Numbered from the stretch's first letter, positions 3,809-38,406 are shown. The stretch: DNA of 60,114 nucleotides from Bacteroidota bacterium (GCA_039024375.1 JBCCQK010000001.1:1-60114); one strand, 5' to 3'. Numbers and translations are program-made. The notes: generated by a model not told the origin, from the letters alone.

Positions 3809-4017
3809 TTTGGTCACACCCGTTAATGCGCTTTTAGGAATATGGTGACCCTCTATTCCCCATTTTTCTTAGTATTTTTTTAACACTTCTTTTCTTTCCT
3901 ACCAATTTACGGGGCGAGCTGGATTCCCTGCTACTACTTTTTTGGGGCTAAAACTCACTTCTTCCTTATTTGAATTTGATTAGTTAACCCAAGTTGTGAG
4001 CTGTAATCTATGCTACC

Positions 4018-4345
4018 TAAGCAGGCGATACTTTGTCAGTCTATTGACACCCCACATCTTTTTAGAGATGAAAAGGTGCAGCGCACCGATAACATTTGTA
4101 TCAAAAGTTGGTCAAAACGCTCCAAAGATGCAGCGCACCGTCCACATTAAATCTTATTTTTAACAAATGTGGACGGTGCGCTGCACCTTTGAGACCCACT
4201 TTCAGCAGCAGATGATACAAATATTATCGGTACTCCGTACCTTTTTACCCTAAAGCAAGCTTGTGGGGTGTCGTTAGACTTTGTCAGTATCTCCTGCTTT
4301 TCAAGCGCCTAAAAGAAAGAGATGCTGACAAAGCATCGCTTTCTA
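4018..4345. repeat. Nested-palindrome element, copy 1 (~328 bp), MITE-like or structured-RNA-like
   Basis: About 93% identical by eye to 12236-12564. The central stem of 25 bp has one mismatch (4124-4148 / 4166-4190). Outer arms are GCAGG.GATACTTTGTCAGTCTATTGACACCCCACA / TGTGGGGTGTCGTTAGACTTTGTCAGTATCTCCTGC. Confidence 0.85.
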
Positions 4346-4542
4346 ACCCTACGCACATAAAAGACCACCGTATTTTCTCAAATCCAATAAAAGTAAGGTC
4401 GTCCAGTAGTGAACAGCAATCGTCCATAAACGGACAGATTTCTTATAGGTCTTGTAAAGTGCATTTTCGTAAAAAATTGATAAAGAGCGACTTATATGTT
4501 TGGTATGTCTATTGGAGTGGTTATATTAAAATAGCCAGTATT

Positions 4543-6927
4543 ATGTTTTCTAGTTATCTTAAGATTGCGCTCAGAAATTTTGGGAAGTATCGACTAACTT
4601 CTTTCATCAACTTATTGGGTTTAACCGTTGGAATTGTTGTTTGTTTGCTAATTGTACTGTTCATAAAAACGGAGTCTAATTTTGACAATTTTCACGAAAA
4701 AGCGGACCGTATCGCACTTTTTCGTCAACTTGACCACTCGGCTAGAAGTGGTAGCAAATTTGCGCCCTTTTTAGGAAAAGAACTAGCACAGATAGACAAA
4801 ATCACGCGATTGGTTCCCGATAAGCCACTATTAGATACGGAGGAAACGGCGAATTACGAACCTAACTTCTACTTTGCCGATACTGCTTTTCTATCCATTT
4901 TTGACTTCTCGTTAGCGGTTGGTGACCCGCAGACTGTATTAAAAGAGCCTTACAGCGTGGTACTTTCCCAAAAAATGGCTACTAAGTATTTTCCAAACCT
5001 CAATCCTATCGGTCAAACGATAACTTACCAAAAAAAACAGCCGTTAACCGTAACGGGTATTTTAGAAAATACACCCGATAATTCTCACCTTCAAATTGAC
5101 TTTCTCTGTTCCGCCGAAAATTTGGAGCAATTGAGTCAAGGGAGTTATAATAGTTACTGGGATAGCCGCACATTGACTTATGTGCTGCTCTCCGAGCAAA
5201 CAGATATTGCAGCGCTCTCCGCTCAGTTACCTGAAATCGCCCAACGAACAGAAGATGCAAATGCTAACATTTGGCAACTTTCGCTAATACCCCTGCGAGA
5301 TATTTATTTACGATATAATTTGAGTGGAGGAATAGTTTCCAATAAAGCCATAGAAAACATTTACATCTTTTCGGTAATTGCCTTTTTCGTCTTACTGTTA
5401 GCTTGTTTCAACTACATCAGTTTGGTCACGGCTCGGTCTAATACCAGAGCCAGAGAAGTAGGTGTTCGAAGGCTATTGGGCGCCAACCGAAAGCAGTTAA
5501 TTGCGCAATTTTTGAGCGAATCCACCTTCATGCTTGCTTTCGCTTTATTACTCGCTTTAGGAATTATACAATTGGCTTTTCCCCTATTTAATAGTTTCGT
5601 TGGTAAAGAATTAAGTTTTGTACAACTCGTCGAACCCAAAACTTTAGGCTTATCGGTGGGGATTTTTGTGGCGGTTGCCTGTATTACTGGGCTTTACCCC
5701 GCTTTAGCGTTGTCTTCTTTTCAATTGGTCAACGTATTGAAGAAAACCCTTTTTGGAAAAGCTAAAGACTCCTTTTTTCGAAAAGGATTGGTCGTTGCAC
5801 AGTTTACCATTTCCATCACGATGATTATTGCAACGGTAGTCGTTCTGAACCAAATGTATTTTATAAAAAATAAAGATTTGGGCTACGAACGAGAAGCGGT
5901 GATTAATATTGACTTTCAAGGAAATCTGAGCTCAGAAAAGAAAATAGTCTTCCAACAAGCGGTCAATCAATTAGCTGCCGTAGCCACTTCCACCTTTTGT
6001 AGTGTGCTGCCCGGCAACGGCGCGGCGTATAATAAACTGGTCGAGCAGTATGTTCCCGAAGGAAAATCCGTAACCTATACCTACATTCAGGCGGATGCTA
6101 ATTTTCTATCTACCTTCGATATTCGATTGAAAGAGGGACGAAATTTTTCTTCCCAAGTTCCCAGTAGCGGTCGCCAGTTTCTGGCCAATCAAGCTTTGGT
6201 GGACCATTTAGAGTGGAAATCGGACGCGGTCGGCCAAGAAATAGGCTACTATTCTTACCAAAATTCGGAGAATGGCGGCTATCGAGAAGTGCCAGTAAGA
6301 GGAGAGATTATTGGTATCATCGACGATTATCATCAAAGTAATTTACGGACTTCCATTGAGCCAATGCTTGTTCTCTACGGTTCGGGCTGGCAGGGACAAC
6401 TTGCCGTAAAAGCTAAAACGGCTAGTTTGCGCAGCGTTGTTGAGGATTTGGAAAGCACTTGGAAGCAGAACTTCCCCAACGAGCCTTTTGCCTTTCAGTT
6501 TTTAGATGACGCTTTCCAACAGACTTATCAACAAGAAGAAAAGGTAGGGCAGATATTTAGTGTTTTTTCCGGTTTGGCAATTTTTATTTCTTGTTTAGGC
6601 CTGCTAGGCTTAGTGACTTTTGCCGCCGAGCGGCGCACCAAAGAAATTGGTGTCCGAAAAGTACTGGGTGCTTCTGTCTTGAGTATTATTCGTCTGCTTT
6701 CTTTAGACTTCGTCAAGTTGATTTTCATTGCGCTTTTCTTGGCGATACCCATTGCCGTTTACTTTATGCAAGAATGGCTCAATCGGTTTGTCTATCGAGT
6801 GGATTTAGAGTGGTGGATTTTTGCGGGAGCGGGCTTGATTGCTTTGGTAATTACCTTTTCTACCATTGGGTATCAAAGTGCGAGAGCCGCCTTGGCTAAT
6901 CCAGTAAAATCACTCAGAAGTGAGTAA
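4543..6927 (+). CDS. Double-FtsX (MacB-like) ABC transporter permease, paralog 1
   Basis: Start chosen at the ATG at 4543 (MFSSYLKIALRNFGKY), which matches the N-termini of the paralogs. Two FtsX modules (REVGVRRLLGA and RTKEIGVRKVLGAS). The longer ORF from 4261 runs through the repeat element. Confidence 0.85.
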   Translation: MFSSYLKIALRNFGKYRLTSFINLLGLTVGIVVCLLIVLFIKTESNFDNFHEKADRIALFRQLDHSARSGSKFAPFLGKELAQIDKITRLVPDKPLLDTEETANYEPNFYFADTAFLSIFDFSLAVGDPQTVLKEPYSVVLSQKMATKYFPNLNPIGQTITYQKKQPLTVTGILENTPDNSHLQIDFLCSAENLEQLSQGSYNSYWDSRTLTYVLLSEQTDIAALSAQLPEIAQRTEDANANIWQLSLIPLRDIYLRYNLSGGIVSNKAIENIYIFSVIAFFVLLLACFNYISLVTARSNTRAREVGVRRLLGANRKQLIAQFLSESTFMLAFALLLALGIIQLAFPLFNSFVGKELSFVQLVEPKTLGLSVGIFVAVACITGLYPALALSSFQLVNVLKKTLFGKAKDSFFRKGLVVAQFTISITMIIATVVVLNQMYFIKNKDLGYEREAVINIDFQGNLSSEKKIVFQQAVNQLAAVATSTFCSVLPGNGAAYNKLVEQYVPEGKSVTYTYIQADANFLSTFDIRLKEGRNFSSQVPSSGRQFLANQALVDHLEWKSDAVGQEIGYYSYQNSENGGYREVPVRGEIIGIIDDYHQSNLRTSIEPMLVLYGSGWQGQLAVKAKTASLRSVVEDLESTWKQNFPNEPFAFQFLDDAFQQTYQQEEKVGQIFSVFSGLAIFISCLGLLGLVTFAAERRTKEIGVRKVLGASVLSIIRLLSLDFVKLIFIALFLAIPIAVYFMQEWLNRFVYRVDLEWWIFAGAGLIALVITFSTIGYQSARAALANPVKSLRSE

Positions 6928-9825: not shown

Positions 9826-12201
9826 ATGTTAAAGAACAATTTCAAATTAGCTTTTCGCAGCCTTTTTCGCCAAAAAGGCTATTCTGTTATCAATATTGCT
9901 GGTTTATCCATTTCTTTAGCCGTCACCCTATTAATGTTACTTTGGGTACAAGATGAGTGGAGCACGAATAAATTTCACGAAAACGGCGACCGTATTTTTT
10001 ACGTCAAACGGACCATTCCCCAAGAAGGAGATAAATTAGCGGTTTATCCGAGTATTCCTTATCCAGTCATAGCTGCTGCCGAAAAAGAACTACCCGAGGT
10101 GGAAAAATACATGCCTATGGGCTTTAGTTTTCAAGAAAATGTAGTGCGTGGAGAACAGGCATTTCGGGCGACTGGCTCCTTCGGGAATATGGCTTACTTC
10201 GAGTCTTTTTCTTATCCCGTTTTGCAGGGAGACATCAGTGGACTGGACGAGGAAGTTCCCAATGTGGCCATATCCGAATCGTTAGCCAAAAAGTTTTTTG
10301 GCAATCTTTGGACAACCAATGCTATTGGCGAAGCCATTGAAATCAGTGATGCGGGAGCGTTCAATATTATTGCCATCTTCAAAGATTTTCCCGAAAATTC
10401 GTCCATACAATTGGAGTATGTGCAGTCTTTTGCTAATCATTTGAGCAAAAATGAGTGGATGAAGGAGTGGTCGAATACGGGTATGCAAGGGACAATTTTG
10501 CTGGCGGAAGGAGCAGACCCCATTGCCGTTGGCGAAAAGCTAGAGCGTCTTTTCAAAGACAAACAGGAAGCCGAACGGAAAGAAGGAATTTTGCTCCAAC
10601 GTTATGCAGACGATTACCTCTACGGGCAGTTTGACGAGCAAGCGCAGGTAGCGGGCGGACGAGTTGAATACGTGCAGATGTTCGGCATTGCCGCTTTGTT
10701 ACTATTGCTTATTTCTTGCATCAATTTTGTGAATTTGGCGACGGCGAGAGCTTCTAAAAGAGCCAAAGAAGTTGGGGTGCGAAAAACAATTGGAGCGGGT
10801 AAGTTGGCGCTCATCAAACAATTTATGGCCGAGGCCTTCGTCATAACGATTACCTCCGTTGGTTTAGCCATTTTACTAGCGGAGACCCTATTGCCAAACG
10901 TGCGTCTGATAACCGAGAAGATGCTGGATTTTGACTACACAAAAACTACTTTTTGGTTAAGTATTGCTACCGTTATTGTACTGACCACCTTGTTGTCAGG
11001 GGCCTACCCATCGTTTATCTTATCTGCTTTTAAACCCATCAATGCGCTGAAGGGGAAAGTGGCGCAAAGCAGTGGTAGCGTCCATTTCCGTAAAGGGTTG
11101 GTGATTATCCAATTTGTATTAGCGCTGTTGTTGGTGGTAGGGGCTTTTGTCGTCAAAGAGCAAGTTACGTACATTCAAAACAAGAATATTGGGCTTAATA
11201 AGGACAATTTGCTCATTGTTCAAAGAGAAGAAAAAGTTGCCGCAGCGTACGAAGTGCTGAAAAATGAGTTATTGCAGGCAGAAGGCATCGAAAAATTAAC
11301 CTCCGCAGGCCCGACACCCATCGATTTGCAGGCCTCCACTAGTGGAGTTGTTTGGGAAGGAAAAAGAGCAGACCAAGAGAACGAAGAATTTCAGATATTA
11401 TGGACCGAGAGCAATTTCTTGGAGGTCTTTGAAATCGAACTGGCGAGTGGTCGCTTCTACCGAGAAGGTACCCAGATTGACTCAAATAGTATAGTGCTCA
11501 ACCAAAAGGCAGTAGAAATGATGGGCTTAGCGGAAGACCCCATTGGACAAGTTATTCAATTTTGGGGCCAACCGACCCAAATCATCGGCGTAGTGGAAGA
11601 TTTTAATAATCGTTCGTTGTACGAAGATATTGAACCTACGGCCATTCTACTAGACCCCGAATCCACTTGGTCTCTTTTTATTAAAGTCAAAGATGGCCAG
11701 CTGAGCGAAGCGATTACTAGCGTTCAGAAAGTATTTGGAGAGGTTGTACCAGAAGTTCCACTTCATTACGAGTTCTTGGACAAGCAGTACCAGCAGGTTT
11801 ATAAAAGCGAGGTATTGACTGGAACATTGGCCAATTATTTTGCCTTCATTTCCATTTTCATTGCCTGTTTAGGCTTGTTTGGGCTTTCTACCTTTTTTGC
11901 CGAACAGCGCACTAAAGAAATTGGCATCCGTAAAGTACTCGGTGCTTCCCTAACGAACTTGGTCGTATTGCTATCCAAAGAATTTTTACTGCTCGTGAGT
12001 ATAGGATTAGTGGTTGGCATCCCCGTGGCCTACTACCTGCTGAGTAACTGGTTAGACAATTTTGCTTTTAATATCCAATTAGAATGGTGGATGTTTGTGC
12101 TGCCCATCGTCATTGCCGTTTGCGTGGCGGCTACCACCGTCAGTATTCAAGCTATTCGAACGGCGATTATCAATCCCATTAAAAGTATCAAAATAGAATA
12201 A
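9826..12201 (+). CDS. Double-FtsX (MacB-like) ABC transporter permease, paralog 3
   Basis: MLKNNFKLAFRSLFRQKGYS N-terminus. AKEVGVRKTIGAGK and RTKEIGIRKVLGAS motifs. Confidence 0.9.
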   Translation: MLKNNFKLAFRSLFRQKGYSVINIAGLSISLAVTLLMLLWVQDEWSTNKFHENGDRIFYVKRTIPQEGDKLAVYPSIPYPVIAAAEKELPEVEKYMPMGFSFQENVVRGEQAFRATGSFGNMAYFESFSYPVLQGDISGLDEEVPNVAISESLAKKFFGNLWTTNAIGEAIEISDAGAFNIIAIFKDFPENSSIQLEYVQSFANHLSKNEWMKEWSNTGMQGTILLAEGADPIAVGEKLERLFKDKQEAERKEGILLQRYADDYLYGQFDEQAQVAGGRVEYVQMFGIAALLLLLISCINFVNLATARASKRAKEVGVRKTIGAGKLALIKQFMAEAFVITITSVGLAILLAETLLPNVRLITEKMLDFDYTKTTFWLSIATVIVLTTLLSGAYPSFILSAFKPINALKGKVAQSSGSVHFRKGLVIIQFVLALLLVVGAFVVKEQVTYIQNKNIGLNKDNLLIVQREEKVAAAYEVLKNELLQAEGIEKLTSAGPTPIDLQASTSGVVWEGKRADQENEEFQILWTESNFLEVFEIELASGRFYREGTQIDSNSIVLNQKAVEMMGLAEDPIGQVIQFWGQPTQIIGVVEDFNNRSLYEDIEPTAILLDPESTWSLFIKVKDGQLSEAITSVQKVFGEVVPEVPLHYEFLDKQYQQVYKSEVLTGTLANYFAFISIFIACLGLFGLSTFFAEQRTKEIGIRKVLGASLTNLVVLLSKEFLLLVSIGLVVGIPVAYYLLSNWLDNFAFNIQLEWWMFVLPIVIAVCVAATTVSIQAIRTAIINPIKSIKIE

Positions 12202-12590
12202 TTAATTCAAGTTGCGGACTAAGTTTCTTGAATCTTAAGCAGGTGATACTTTGCCAGTCTATTGACACCCCACATCCTTTTAGAGATGAAAAGGTGCAGC
12301 GCACCGATAACATTTGTATCAAAAGTTGGTCAAAACGCTCCAAAGGTGCAGCGCACCGTCCACATTAAACCTTATTTTTAACAAATGTGGACGGTGCACT
12401 GCACCTTTGAGACCTACTTTCAGCAGCAGGTGATACAAATATTATCGGTACTCCGTACCTTATTTACCCTAAAGTAACCTTGTGGGGTGTCGTTAGACTT
12501 TGCCAGTATCTCCTGCTTTTTGGGAAGATATAAGAAAGAGATGCTGGCAAAGCATCGCTTTCTACTTCTTCTACGCAACTCGAATTAATT
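12200..12590. repeat. Nested-palindrome element, copy 2, with an extra outer inverted repeat (AATTAATTCAAGTTGCG / CGCAACTCGAATTAATT)
   Basis: The core 12236-12564 matches 4018-4345. The outer arms begin inside the stop codon of paralog 3. Confidence 0.85.
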
Positions 12591-12636
12591 ACTGAGAATT
12601 AGGCTTGTATGGAGTTTTTTCAAAAAAGACTAAATT

Positions 12637-12755
12637 AGGACTGATTCAATACAGATTGGGCAAGATTTAACTGATTTTTACAGATTTCAAACTCAAATGG
12701 CTGAAAAAATCAGCGAAAATCTGTCGAATCCGTTCAATCAGTGTTGAATAAAGTC
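12637..12755. repeat. Intergenic repeat family D (GATTCAATACAGATT / AAAATCTGT / CAATCAGTGTT word repeats, palindromic)
   Basis: The outer arms GGACTGATTCAA / TTGAATAAAGTCC are imperfect. Shares ATCAGTGTT and overall organisation with 45476-45545. Confidence 0.5.
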
Positions 12756-37723: not shown

Positions 37724-37795
37724 AGGATGTGTACGTTTGTCTATTTCGGACAGGCATCGGTTGAGGAACTGTCCTTAAGTGAAATCTAAAATTTA

Positions 37796-38125
37796 AAATG
37801 TAAAACTCTAAATTTAAAAGTACTGAAAATCAGTAATTATCTACTAAAATTCGTTCGATTGTTTGATGGCTTGATTGTTTGATGGTTAAAGCTACTTAGA
37901 AACAATCAAACCATCTGACAATCAGACCATCATCAACTTTATTACTAGTCACAGATGGCTAATTTTCAAGCAATTGGGAATTTAGACACGCTCTTACAAT
38001 AAGGAACCGTGAAAATAATTTAGCATTTTCAAAAATTTCAACTTTCAGTTTACAGTACTTTTGAATTTTGGACCAGCCCGCACAGCAGTCTGGCGGGTTT
38101 GAAATTTAAAATTTTACATTTTTTT
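37796..38125. repeat. Nested palindromic intergenic element (~330 bp) with an inner palindrome at 37857-37937 (GATTGTTTGATGG x2 / inverted copies)
   Basis: Outer arms AAAATGTAAAACTCTAAATTTAAAAGTACTG / CAGTACTTTTGAATTTT...AAATTTAAAATTTTACATTTT. The right arm is interrupted by a CCCGC/GCGGG hairpin. Confidence 0.6.
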
Positions 38126-38406
38126 AAGGTACTCGGTAGGTATGTTTTCTTATAGTTTATCAACAATCAATCCATAATTAATCGCTTTGCTACATGAATG
38201 ATAAATGTTGAGTGTAACGAAATCTCGATTTTATATCGGGAATGGATGATGAATAATTTTAATTTGTAAGAAATTAATCTTCACTGTAAAGAATAGAGAG
38301 CAGGGATTAGAGACGAAAGTACAGAAAACTAATTTTTGTCGCTTGAATGAAATTCATAAGTCTCTCATCTCTCAATGAAATGGTCTCTATTCTCTACTCT
38401 GGCCAT

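What the first reader, a model, noticed from the sequence alone, without database searches (positions are those of the whole stretch)
4018..4345. A ~330-bp nested-palindrome element present twice (second copy 12236-12564) shows concordant three-site substitutions
The two copies differ at about 22 of 328 positions by my count. Each folds on paper into a long hairpin. The central stem of 25 bp has one mismatch (4124-4148 / 4166-4190). Next come a second imperfect tier (AAAGGTGCAGCGCACCGATAACATTTGTATC / GATACAAATATTATCGGTACTCCGTACCTTT), an outer tier (..ATTGACACCCCACA / TGTGGGGTGTCGTTAG..), and a terminal mini-hairpin GATGCTGACAAAGCATC. The word TTTGTCAG occurs twice in direct orientation (4032-4039, 4280-4287), and its complement CTGACAAA forms the mini-hairpin loop region (4325-4332). 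In copy 2 all three sites have changed together to TTTGCCAG, TTTGCCAG and CTGGCAAA. This concordant change suggests either base-pairing (a loop-bulge or kissing interaction) under selection, or intra-element templated conversion. Copy 2 carries an additional outer 17-bp inverted repeat (12200-12216 / 12574-12590) that begins inside the stop codon of permease 3. Copy 1 lies upstream of permease 1 and copy 2 between permeases 3 and 4. They could be MITEs, transcription insulators or terminators, or a structured RNA.
Basis: seen in the sequence. Interest (0 to 1): 0.65.

Follow-up and report, generated by a model that had tools for sequence, protein, structure and literature searches.

The report
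Nested mobile hairpin repeats, Saprospiraceae genome
The two 330-bp "nested palindromes" are copies of a small non-coding mobile repeat inserted in the loop of another hairpin repeat, and the insertion duplicated its target, which explains most of the "three sites changing together"; the kind is ordinary, only the family is new.

Summary
There are two copies, about 94% identical, each folding into an extreme hairpin (z -20 and -15). The word TTTGYCAG occurs twice directly and once inverted, and the three sites differ concordantly between copies.

The element is not one unit. It is a stack of repeat families from an uncultured marine Saprospiraceae-like bacterium, each present at tens to more than 100 copy-equivalents in the source metagenome.
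- The outer part is a REPIN/BIME-like inverted doublet of two 33-nt hairpins, REP1 and REP2.
- A 239-bp MITE-like composite (4040-4278) sits in the REP1 loop. It has 17-nt terminal inverted repeats and is flanked by a 9-11-bp direct duplication, (A)CTTTGYCAG(T).
- Uninterrupted REP1 "empty sites" occur in many contigs.

Two of the three concordant sites are therefore the target-site duplication. The third is the homologous loop position of REP2.

The hosts differ far more than the insert does (spacer 8/11 against interior 9/240). This points to independent insertions into two different doublets.

In the population the REP1 site is about 98% C and the REP2 site at least 83% A, so most doublets are probably discordant.

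I found no support for a kissing interaction, no Rfam family and no RNA data.

The parts
3980..4017 (.). Copy 1: degenerate left outer arm plus filler (TTAGTTAACCCAAGTTGTGAGCT...). It corresponds to the family consensus TAATTAAyyCAAGTTGCGGACTATAATCTTTACTACC.
   Evidence: Alignment to the left flank of copy 2. Loose-end consensus of other copies before 4004.
4018..4039 (+). Copy 1: REP1 left stem (AAGCAGGCGATAC) plus loop. Positions 4031-4039, CTTTGTCAG, are the first copy of the duplicated target.
   Evidence: Flanks upstream of 4016-4020 differ between contigs, so this is a true element boundary.
4040..4278 (.). Copy 1: inner MITE-like composite (L2-L4). Terminal inverted repeats are 4040-4056 TCTATTGACACCCCACA and 4262-4278 TGTGGGGTGTCGTTAGA (15/17 complementary).
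   Evidence: 96% identical to 12258-12497. Joints that skip about 246-270 nt, and contigs reading GCGATACTTTGCCAGTATCTCC, show the uninterrupted site.
4061..4253 (.). Copy 1: L3 palindrome inside L2 (arms 4071-4116 / 4200-4245). Each arm contains a mini-palindrome, GGTGC-AGC-GCACC or GGTAC-TCC-GTACC.
   Evidence: Its depth (450-715) is higher than at the L2 ends (260-310), and L3 occurs in variant shells.
4116..4199 (.). Copy 1: L4 central hairpin module (arms 4123-4148 / 4166-4191). It is replaceable: other copies lack it or carry a different AAAGGTGCATCGCACCGA palindrome at the same place.
   Evidence: Joint 4115->4214 in X1 and 4115->4227 in X4, with alternative loose ends at 4115 and 4200. 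Depth is only about 38.
4279..4301 (+). Copy 1: second copy of the duplicated target (4279-4287, CTTTGTCAG) plus REP1 right stem (GTATCTCCTGCTT).
4302..4312 (.). Copy 1: variable spacer between REP1 and REP2. It differs from copy 2 at 8 of 11 positions.
4313..4345 (+). Copy 1: REP2 hairpin AAGAAAGAGATGC-TGACAAA-GCATCGCTTTCTA, an inverted, diverged copy of REP1. This is the most abundant module.
   Evidence: (summed depth about 1300 against about 8 for unique flanks).
12199..12235 (.). Copy 2: left outer arm TAATTAATTCAAGTTGCGGA (it overlaps the TAA stop of permease 3) plus filler.
12236..12257 (+). Copy 2: REP1 left stem plus loop. The first copy of the duplicated target is CTTTGCCAG at 12249-12257.
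12258..12497 (.). Copy 2: inner MITE-like composite (L2-L4), with terminal inverted repeats 12258-12274 and 12481-12497.
12498..12564 (+). Copy 2: second copy of the duplicated target (12498-12506), REP1 right stem, variable spacer (12521-12531) and REP2 (12532-12564, with loop TGGCAAA).
12574..12591 (.). Copy 2: right outer arm CGCAACTCGAATTAATTA. The family consensus is CCGTTATCCGCAACTTGAATTAATTA.
   Evidence: Loose-end consensus behind 4345-4348 and behind 12564 in many contigs.

Best explanation
Each 330-bp element is a stack of small non-coding repeats, not one designed structure.

**Host layer.** The host is a REPIN/BIME-like doublet. It consists of two about 33-nt hairpins in inverted orientation, separated by a short variable spacer:
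- REP1: AAGCAGGCGATAC-TTTGYCA-GTATCTCCTGCTT
- REP2: AAGAAAGAGATGC-TGRCAAA-GCATCGCTTTCTA

The doublet usually lies inside a longer outer inverted repeat, TAATTAATTCAAGTTGCGGA... / ...TCCGCAACTTGAATTAATTA.

**Inserted layer.** A 239-bp MITE-like composite inserted into the apical loop of REP1. It has 17-nt terminal inverted repeats and itself carries nested palindromes L3 and L4. The insertion duplicated 9-11 bp of target, (A)CTTTGYCAG(T).

**Why the three sites agree.** The two direct TTTGYCAG words are this target-site duplication, so they must be identical to each other. CTGRCAAA is the same loop word in the inverted partner REP2.
- Copy 1 landed in a rare REP1 variant with T.
- Copy 2 landed in the common variant with C, next to a minority REP2 with G.
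- The three concordant changes therefore reduce to one polymorphism copied by the duplication, plus one independent loop polymorphism.

**What is shown:** the anatomy, the duplication, the empty sites, the copy-number layers, and the unequal divergence of host and insert.

**What is inferred:**
- The composite is mobilised in trans by a DDE-type transposase with a 9-11-bp staggered cut and a strong preference for the REP1 loop.
- The REP doublets spread by a RAYT-like or unknown enzyme.
- Any effect on neighbouring genes, such as termination or mRNA stability, is incidental.
For: 1. **Duplication beside the terminal inverted repeats, in both copies.** Copy 1 reads GATACTTTGTCAGT|CTATTGACACC... 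and ...GTCGTTAGACTTTGTCAGTATC. Copy 2 reads the same with C.

2. **Empty sites exist.**
- Source-run contigs join 4029-4040 directly to 4278-4311 (joints and table 5c).
- Loose ends read ATACTTTGCCAGTATCTCCTGCTTTTT and TTTGCCAGTATTTCCTGCTTTTCAAAAGGA directly before REP2.

3. **Host and insert have different ages.**
- The insert differs at 9 of 240 positions. Its unpaired segments differ at 0/19, 1/17 and 2/23.
- The REP1-REP2 spacer differs at 8 of 11 (Fisher p = 1e-8), and the outer flanks at roughly 40-55% (12/30 and 17/31).
- Host 12/89 against insert 9/240 gives p = 0.004.

4. **The rare T variant has about the same depth at both duplicated sites.**
- At 4036, T accounts for 641.7 - 627.2 = 14.5.
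- The exact-match unitig across 4254-4301 has depth 12.6.
- Unique flanks have depth 8.05. So T/T marks only about 1-2 copies, as expected if one variant was duplicated.

5. **The family is multi-copy and layered.** Unique flanks have depth about 8. REP2 is about 1300, the REP1 arm about 350-640, the L2 ends about 260-750, the L3 arms about 450-715 and L4 about 38.

6. **REP1 and REP2 differ by three fully compensated stem pairs** (C-G/A-T, G-C/A-T, A-T/G-C). Each is therefore kept as its own hairpin (read from the sequences).

7. **The third site is mostly discordant in the population.** The REP1 site is C in 627/641. The REP2 site is A in 783/947.

8. **No protein or known RNA explains the element.** The longest stop-to-stop frame lying within the element is 59 aa in copy 1; the 61-aa frame of copy 2 starts in the flank. 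There is no Rfam family at gathering scores, only sub-threshold generic miRNA-hairpin matches.

9. **Precedent.** IS elements of five families target REP sequences specifically (PMC1525189).
Against: - Only two full copies could be read base by base. All population data are depth-weighted summaries of short Logan contigs. Those contigs collapse repeats, drop rare variants and may mix related organisms.
- No read links the three sites in other copies.
- In the source run every listed L2 left end that extends upstream continues into REP1. REP1::L2 could therefore be the amplifying unit, with short forms arising by deletion across the direct repeat.
- Relative to a C/A consensus, both copies happen to restore a Watson-Crick pair in the REP1:REP2 long hairpin (T-A and C-G). 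This is what weak selection for doublet pairing would also produce.
Confidence: 0.72

Rival explanations
1. REP1::L2::REP1' moves as a single composite element with 38-nt imperfect terminal inverted repeats (4019-4056 / 4262-4299). It lands repeatedly next to REP2-type elements. The short REP1 hairpins would then be deletion products formed by recombination across the 9-11-bp direct repeat.
For: - In the source run no listed contig shows the L2 left end with a flank other than REP1.
- The 38-nt arms are 79% complementary.
- Depth at the L2 ends is similar to depth on the REP1 arm.
Against: - It does not explain why the rare T variant is present at both direct words of copy 1 and at equal low depth. 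A unit copied as a whole would need two identical mutations.
- The word lies in direct, not inverted, orientation inside otherwise inverted arms. This is the signature of a duplication.
- Short forms appear in all four runs.
- One X4 contig shows an L2 left end with a different flank.
Confidence: 0.1
2. The element is transcribed into a structured RNA, or acts as a structured single strand. In that molecule TTTGYCAG and CUGRCAAA pair (a long-range or kissing interaction), and selection keeps the sites complementary.
For: - Extreme folding energy.
- In the reconstructed short form the minimum-energy fold pairs REP1 with REP2, including these words (-35.7 and -34.6 kcal/mol).
- Both window copies have a Watson-Crick pair at the variable site.
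Against: - The population frequencies are about 98% C at REP1 and at least 83% A at REP2. If the modules co-occur as in the window, this makes C·A the commonest combination.
- Given those frequencies, two concordant copies are expected by chance about 14% of the time (0.83 x 0.17).
- The other two stem substitutions between the copies (4128 A/G and 4179 G/A) each break a pair.
- There is no Rfam family and no RNA run.
- The three compensated differences between REP1 and REP2 favour two separate hairpins over the long one.
Confidence: 0.07
3. Intra-element templated conversion, such as mismatch repair of a fold-back intermediate or gene conversion between arms, homogenises the three words after a single mutation.
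For: Palindromic repeats can undergo arm-to-arm correction. All three sites agree within each copy.
Against: - Fold-back templating would copy a change into the complementary arm in inverted orientation. It would not copy it into the second direct word.
- Neighbouring mismatches (C·T in the REP1 stem, 4128·4186, 4135·4179) have not been corrected.
- The duplication model needs no extra process.
Confidence: 0.05
4. The two copies are leftovers of the tandem duplication that created the permease paralogues.
For: Both copies lie in spacers of the MacB/FtsX permease array.
Against: - Permease paralogues are only 63-71% identical over their best-conserved DNA stretch, whereas the elements are 94-96% identical.
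- Other spacers of the array lack the element.
- The family is present at tens to more than 100 copy-equivalents elsewhere in the source metagenome.
Confidence: 0.02

Closest known systems
REP / BIME / REPIN elements (Enterobacteria, Pseudomonas), mobilised by RAYT (TnpA-REP) Y1 transposases (PMC3116915, PMC3333891, PMC2817692)
   Same: - About 33-nt imperfect palindromes at very high copy number in intergenic DNA.
- Two hairpin types in inverted orientation separated by a short variable linker.
- The types differ by compensated stem changes.
- The doublet can fold into one long hairpin.
- The family is lineage-specific: it is absent from 145 kb of related Saprospiraceae contigs.
   Different: - No RAYT could be looked for.
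- There is no consistent GTAG or CGTC tag. CTAC lies next to REP1 in copy 1 and in the consensus, but not in copy 2.
- The stems are A+T-richer than classical REPs.
- The doublet is usually embedded in a further outer inverted repeat of about 26 nt.
- The host is Bacteroidota (Saprospiraceae-like). I found no published REPIN description for this group in the searches I ran.
Bacterial MITEs derived from DDE-transposase IS elements (for example Correia, ERIC, Nezha-type elements)
   Same: The inner 239-bp unit is small, non-coding and multi-copy. It has 17-nt imperfect terminal inverted repeats and a 9-11-bp direct duplication of the target. It folds into a long hairpin.
   Different: - The parent IS is unknown.
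- The interior is itself built from nested palindromic modules that also occur separately.
- In this genome the insertion site appears restricted to one hairpin loop.
REP-targeting insertion sequences: IS1397 and ISKpn1 (IS3 family), IS621, ISPpu9 and ISPpu10 (IS110 family), and others in IS4, IS5 and IS256 (PMC1525189)
   Same: A mobile element inserts specifically inside a REP-type palindrome.
   Different: Those are autonomous IS elements, and the IS110 members make no long duplication. Here the inserted unit is a non-autonomous MITE with a 9-11-bp duplication in the apical loop.
Small dispersed repeats and nested MITE-like elements of cyanobacteria
   Same: Very small palindromic modules are found nested inside other repeats.
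   Different: Different phylum and different sequences. Their insertion has been described without a clear target duplication. I could not check this in the paper library.

Membership tests
MITE (non-autonomous TIR/DDE element), inner unit 4040-4278 | Terminal inverted repeats | tested here: met
   TCTATTGACACCCCACA / TGTGGGGTGTCGTTAGA, 15 of 17 complementary, identical in both copies.
MITE (non-autonomous TIR/DDE element), inner unit 4040-4278 | Target-site duplication, with an uninterrupted (empty) target elsewhere | tested here: met
   A 9-11-bp direct repeat, (A)CTTTGYCAG(T), abuts both terminal inverted repeats in both copies. Contigs carry GCGATACTTTGCCAGTATCTCC without the insert.
MITE (non-autonomous TIR/DDE element), inner unit 4040-4278 | Small, non-coding, multi-copy | tested here: met
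   The unit is 239 bp. No stop-to-stop frame longer than 61 aa overlaps the elements, apart from those running into the flanking permease genes. Summed contig depth is 260-750 against about 8 for flanking unique DNA.
MITE (non-autonomous TIR/DDE element), inner unit 4040-4278 | An autonomous IS with matching terminal inverted repeats in the same or a related genome | not testable with these tools
No transposase domain was found in the ORFs scanned in the window. The TIR word gave only chance hits in viral contigs.
REP / REPIN / BIME | Short (20-40 nt) imperfect palindromes, highly repeated and extragenic | tested here: met
   REP1 and REP2 have 13-bp stems and 7-nt loops. REP2 depth is about 1300 against 8. 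Both window copies are intergenic.
REP / REPIN / BIME | Inverted doublet with a short spacer that can form a long hairpin | tested here: met
   The reconstructed short form folds REP1 on REP2 at -35.7 and -34.6 kcal/mol. The spacer is 11 nt and variable.
REP / REPIN / BIME | A cognate single-copy RAYT (Y1_Tnp) gene flanked by REPs | not testable with these tools
None was found among the ORFs scanned in the window.
REP / REPIN / BIME | A conserved GTAG or CGTC tag at one end of the palindrome (PMC3733652) | tested here: inconclusive
   CTAC lies 2 nt upstream of REP1 in copy 1 and in the consensus of other copies. It is absent at that place in copy 2. No consistent tag sits next to REP2.
Structured non-coding RNA | Match to a described family, or compensatory covariation beyond chance | tested here: not met
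   No Rfam hit at gathering scores. Only sub-threshold generic miRNA-hairpin hits appear on both strands. The other stem substitutions between the copies break pairs (and the sequence). The population frequencies at the claimed pair are discordant.
IS200/IS605-type palindrome-associated elements (PATE) | Subterminal hairpins, no terminal inverted repeats and no target duplication | tested here: not met
   The inner unit has terminal inverted repeats and a 9-11-bp duplication.
Intrinsic terminator | G+C-rich stem followed by a T run, placed at a gene end | tested here: inconclusive
   The consensus scan marks REP2 and the mini-palindromes as terminator-like, on both strands in copy 2 and on the minus strand only for REP2 in copy 1 (5-7 sites against about 0.6-0.9 expected). 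Copy 1 lies in a divergent promoter region, not at a gene end. No RNA data are available.

The most novel reading that the evidence does not exclude
The stack may not be accidental. In this lineage the apical loops of hairpin repeats would serve as the preferred or only landing pads for other hairpin repeats. Four or five module families (outer inverted repeat, REP doublet, L2, L3, L4) would build Russian-doll palindromes by structure-directed insertion into extruded or single-stranded hairpin loops. One layer would use a staggered 9-11-bp cut and the inner ones would insert seamlessly. In addition, weak selection would keep the REP1 and REP2 loops complementary in doublets.
Probability: 0.15. 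Interest if true: 0.55.

Novelty: new member of a known kind. Interest (0 to 1): 0.3.

Why it matters
- **Caution for covariation arguments.** A pairwise covariation signal in a repeat can be produced entirely by a target-site duplication plus subfamily polymorphism. R-scape-style reasoning on two copies of a mobile element is therefore unsafe.
- **A new repeat system in Saprospiraceae-like bacteria.** It documents an abundant, lineage-specific REPIN/BIME-like and MITE repeat system in uncultured marine Saprospiraceae-like bacteria. I found no published description of such elements in this group.
- **Practical consequences.** The repeats fragment short-read assemblies of the organism. Logan contigs break at the element edges.
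- **Annotation effects.** One outer arm overlaps the stop codon of permease 3. The element also creates a spurious N-terminal extension of permease 1.
- **A possible experimental handle.** If the loop-targeting is as strict as it looks, the L2 element and its unknown transposase would be a compact system for studying structure-directed insertion.

Tried and rejected
- **Whole-genome census.** Copy number, all-copy covariation and the transposase or RAYT search could not be done directly.
- **Public collections.**
  - The REP2 word gave 42 hits in genome contigs and 11 in metagenome contigs.
  - The REP2 and TIR words gave 9 hits in viral contigs.
  - All hits inspected were unrelated, mostly coding, sequences. 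The rest were single hits scattered across unrelated taxa, close to the number expected by chance.
- **PLSDB plasmids.** A distant blastn search gave no match.
- **Fishing for other copies.** I tried spurious ORF translations of the element and found no candidates.
- **Relatives.**
  - I fetched orthologous loci through the sigma factor and RlmN (145 kb in total).
  - None contain a family module. The family is therefore confined to the window's species and close relatives in the same study.
  - The RlmN homologues place the organism in or near Saprospiraceae/Lewinellaceae.
- **Insertion polymorphism.**
  - No empty site was seen for either locus in the sister samples.
  - An X3 relative shares REP2 at the copy 1 locus.
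  - An X4 contig ends at 12195, just before copy 2.
  - Both loci are probably occupied there too.
- **Limits of read laying.** The variant tables are unreliable for short references. Searches list no variants although the pieces show mismatches. I therefore used only the A-site and C-site frequencies from the long references and the unitig depths.
- **Ideas rejected.**
  - A cyanobacterial origin was my first guess from the style of the repeats.
  - Segmental duplication together with the permease genes.
  - An IS200/IS605 PATE.
  - A known Rfam family.

Full report
**Observation**

Both copies exist as described: 4018-4345 and 12236-12564. They differ at 21 of about 329 aligned positions. 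The RNA folds are -159.9 and -156.3 kcal/mol, with z-scores of -19.7 and -15.1 against dinucleotide shuffles. The word TTTGTCAG (twice, direct) and CTGACAAA (once) in copy 1 become TTTGCCAG, TTTGCCAG and CTGGCAAA in copy 2. The outer inverted repeat of copy 2 begins on the TAA stop of permease 3.

**Context**

- The flanking genes are an ECF sigma / TPR module and a tandem array of MacB_PCD + FtsX permeases.
- RlmN homologues place the organism in or near Saprospiraceae/Lewinellaceae. The best named hits are Saprospiraceae MAGs at 88% identity, with Flavilitoribacter and Phaeodactylibacter at 77-78%.
- The DNA comes from a marine metagenome. The only contig carrying the exact sigma protein is a 1,950-bp Logan contig of SRR22824307.
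- The permease paralogues are 63-71% identical over their best-conserved DNA stretch. The elements, at 94-96% identity, are therefore much younger than the gene duplications.

**Anatomy**

The element is modular.

1. *Two partner hairpins.*
   - The mini-hairpin is a full 13-bp-stem hairpin, REP2: AAGAAAGAGATGC-TGACAAA-GCATCGCTTTCTA (4313-4345).
   - Joining 4019-4039 to 4288-4299 gives a second hairpin, REP1: AAGCAGGCGATAC-TTTGTCA-GTATCTCCTGCTT.
   - REP1 is an inverted, diverged copy of REP2.
   - The two differ by three fully compensated stem pairs and share the loop word TTTGYCA in their own orientation (and direct reading).
   - This is the architecture of a REPIN or BIME: two REP types in inverted orientation with a short variable linker.
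2. *The inner unit (L2).*
   - Between the halves of REP1 lies a 239-bp unit (4040-4278).
   - Its 17-nt terminal inverted repeats are TCTATTGACACCCCACA / TGTGGGGTGTCGTTAGA.
   - It is flanked by the direct repeat (A)CTTTGYCAG(T), 9-11 nt depending on how the terminal T and A are assigned.
3. *Nested palindromes.*
   - Inside this unit are further palindromes: L3 (arms 4071-4116 / 4200-4245) and L4 (arms 4123-4148 / 4166-4191).
   - Their arms share the mini-palindrome GGTGC-AGC-GCACC.
4. *Outer inverted repeat.*
   - The family consensus outside the doublet continues into an outer inverted repeat, TAATTAATTCAAGTTGCGGA... / ...CCGTTATCCGCAACTTGAATTAATTA.
   - It is intact in copy 2 and decayed in copy 1.
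   - Two contigs from sister samples show a simpler form in which this outer repeat encloses REP2 alone (loose ends at 4314).

**Population evidence**

I laid the Logan contigs of the source run (X1) and three sister samples on the element. Unique flanks have word depth about 8.

| Module | Summed depth in X1 |
|---|---|
| REP2 | about 1300 |
| REP1 left arm | 350-640 |
| L2 ends | 260-750 |
| L3 arms | 450-715 |
| L4 | about 38 |

They are rough, because repeats are collapsed and other organisms may contribute. Even so, they show tens to more than 100 copy-equivalents and different abundances for different layers.

- Many contigs carry the uninterrupted REP1. Joints run from 4029-4040 to 4278-4311, and the letters between them are simply the REP1 right stem plus a spacer. 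Loose ends read ATACTTTGCCAGTATCTCCTGCTTTTT.
- Forms lacking L4, or carrying a different palindrome in its place, also occur.
- Flanks upstream of 4016-4020 differ between contigs, so the left end of REP1 is a genuine element boundary.

**The three-site concordance**

The two direct words are the two halves of a target-site duplication made when L2 entered the REP1 loop. They therefore count as one site.

*Independent insertions into two different hosts.*
- The insert differs at 9 of 240 positions. Its unpaired segments, which should be free to drift, differ at 0/19, 1/17 and 2/23.
- The REP1-REP2 spacer differs at 8 of 11 (Fisher p = 1e-8), and the outer flanks are barely alignable (12/30 and 17/31).

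*T is rare at both duplicated sites.*
- At 4036, depth 627.2 of 641.7 carries C, leaving 14.5 for T.
- The only unitig matching copy 1 exactly across the right junction has depth 12.6, against 57, 30 and others for variants.
- Equal low depth at both sites, about 1-2 copies, is what a duplicated rare variant predicts.

*The third site varies largely on its own.*
- It is the loop of REP2, and 783 of 947 depth units carry A there.
- If most REP1-bearing elements also carry a REP2, the commonest doublet is C/A, which is discordant.
- Copy 1 then differs from the consensus by T in REP1. Copy 2 differs by G in REP2.
- With these frequencies, the chance that both copies look Watson-Crick concordant at the third site is about 0.83 x 0.17 = 0.14. 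That is not remarkable.
- The only two other substitutions that fall in stems (4128 A/G and 4179 G/A) each create a mismatch.

**Mechanism**

- *Shown:* the terminal inverted repeats, the duplication, the empty sites, the copy number and the host/insert age contrast.
- *Inferred, for L2:*
  - The L2 composite is a MITE mobilised in trans by a DDE transposase that makes a 9-11-bp staggered cut.
  - It strongly prefers the REP1 loop. In X1 no listed L2 left end has another flank. One X4 contig does.
  - REP-specific insertion has precedent in five IS families (PMC1525189).
- *Inferred, for the doublets:* they probably spread like REPINs (PMC3116915), but I could not look for a RAYT.
- *Not tested:* terminator-like hairpins are present, but function is untested because no RNA run was found.

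**What could not be done**

- Word scans of genome contigs, metagenome contigs and viral contigs gave only unrelated or chance-level hits.
- Plasmids gave nothing, and a search with the element's translation gave nothing.
- 145 kb from related Saprospiraceae contigs contains no module of the family.
- No empty site was seen at either locus in the sister samples. An X3 relative shares REP2 at the copy 1 locus, and an X4 contig stops at 12195.

**Comparison and novelty**

The closest known systems are REP/BIME/REPIN elements, bacterial MITEs, and REP-targeting IS elements. Earlier notes of this scan describe hairpins nested in the loops of other hairpins in several other phyla. The phenomenon therefore seems common, which lowers its novelty. 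I did not test those notes.

**Verdict**

This is a real, lineage-specific, previously undescribed family, but of a known kind. The proposed kissing or conversion mechanism is not needed. Interest is 0.3. Confidence in the duplication explanation is 0.72.

Noticed in passing
window 4261-4540: The 888-aa ORF of permease 1 that starts at TTG 4261 begins inside the repeat. Its MacB_PCD domain starts at residue 114, against residue 20 in the paralogues. The real start is probably about 94 codons downstream (near 4500-4545), and the N-terminal extension is an artefact of the element.
   Followed up: partly
window 12199-12201: The TAA stop of permease 3 is the first triplet of the outer inverted repeat (TAATTAATT...). 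The repeat either inserted exactly at the stop or now supplies it.
   Followed up: no
window 12642-12754: A different repeat lies in the same spacer. It is multi-copy in the three sister samples laid there, with summed depths of about 12-83 and many 80-90% alike contigs.
   Followed up: no
window 4075-4087, 4229-4241 (and 12293-12305, 12447-12459): The arms of the large palindromes are themselves mini-palindromes (GGTGC-AGC-GCACC and GGTAC-TCC-GTACC). The structure is therefore self-similar at three or more scales.
   Followed up: partly
L064-L066 (JGI BBAY65-67), first bases: Three independent JGI contigs of a relative (sigma protein 86% identical) all end exactly 309 nt upstream of the sigma start. 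This is the same distance at which the element starts in the window. The terminal sequence there is unrelated to this family, so a different repeat may occupy the same spot.
   Followed up: partly
window 37724-38406 compared with L077 11053-11364 and L079 6523-6825: The spacer between rlmN and the GH3/beta-lactamase fusion gene is about 680 bp and repeat-filled in the window. It is only about 300 bp in two relatives.
   Followed up: no
window 4316-4500: A 375-nt contig from sister sample X3 matches 4316-4500 with 21 substitutions and 8 gaps, and it starts inside REP2. A relative roughly 12% diverged therefore already carries at least REP2 at this locus, which makes the host doublet old.
   Followed up: partly
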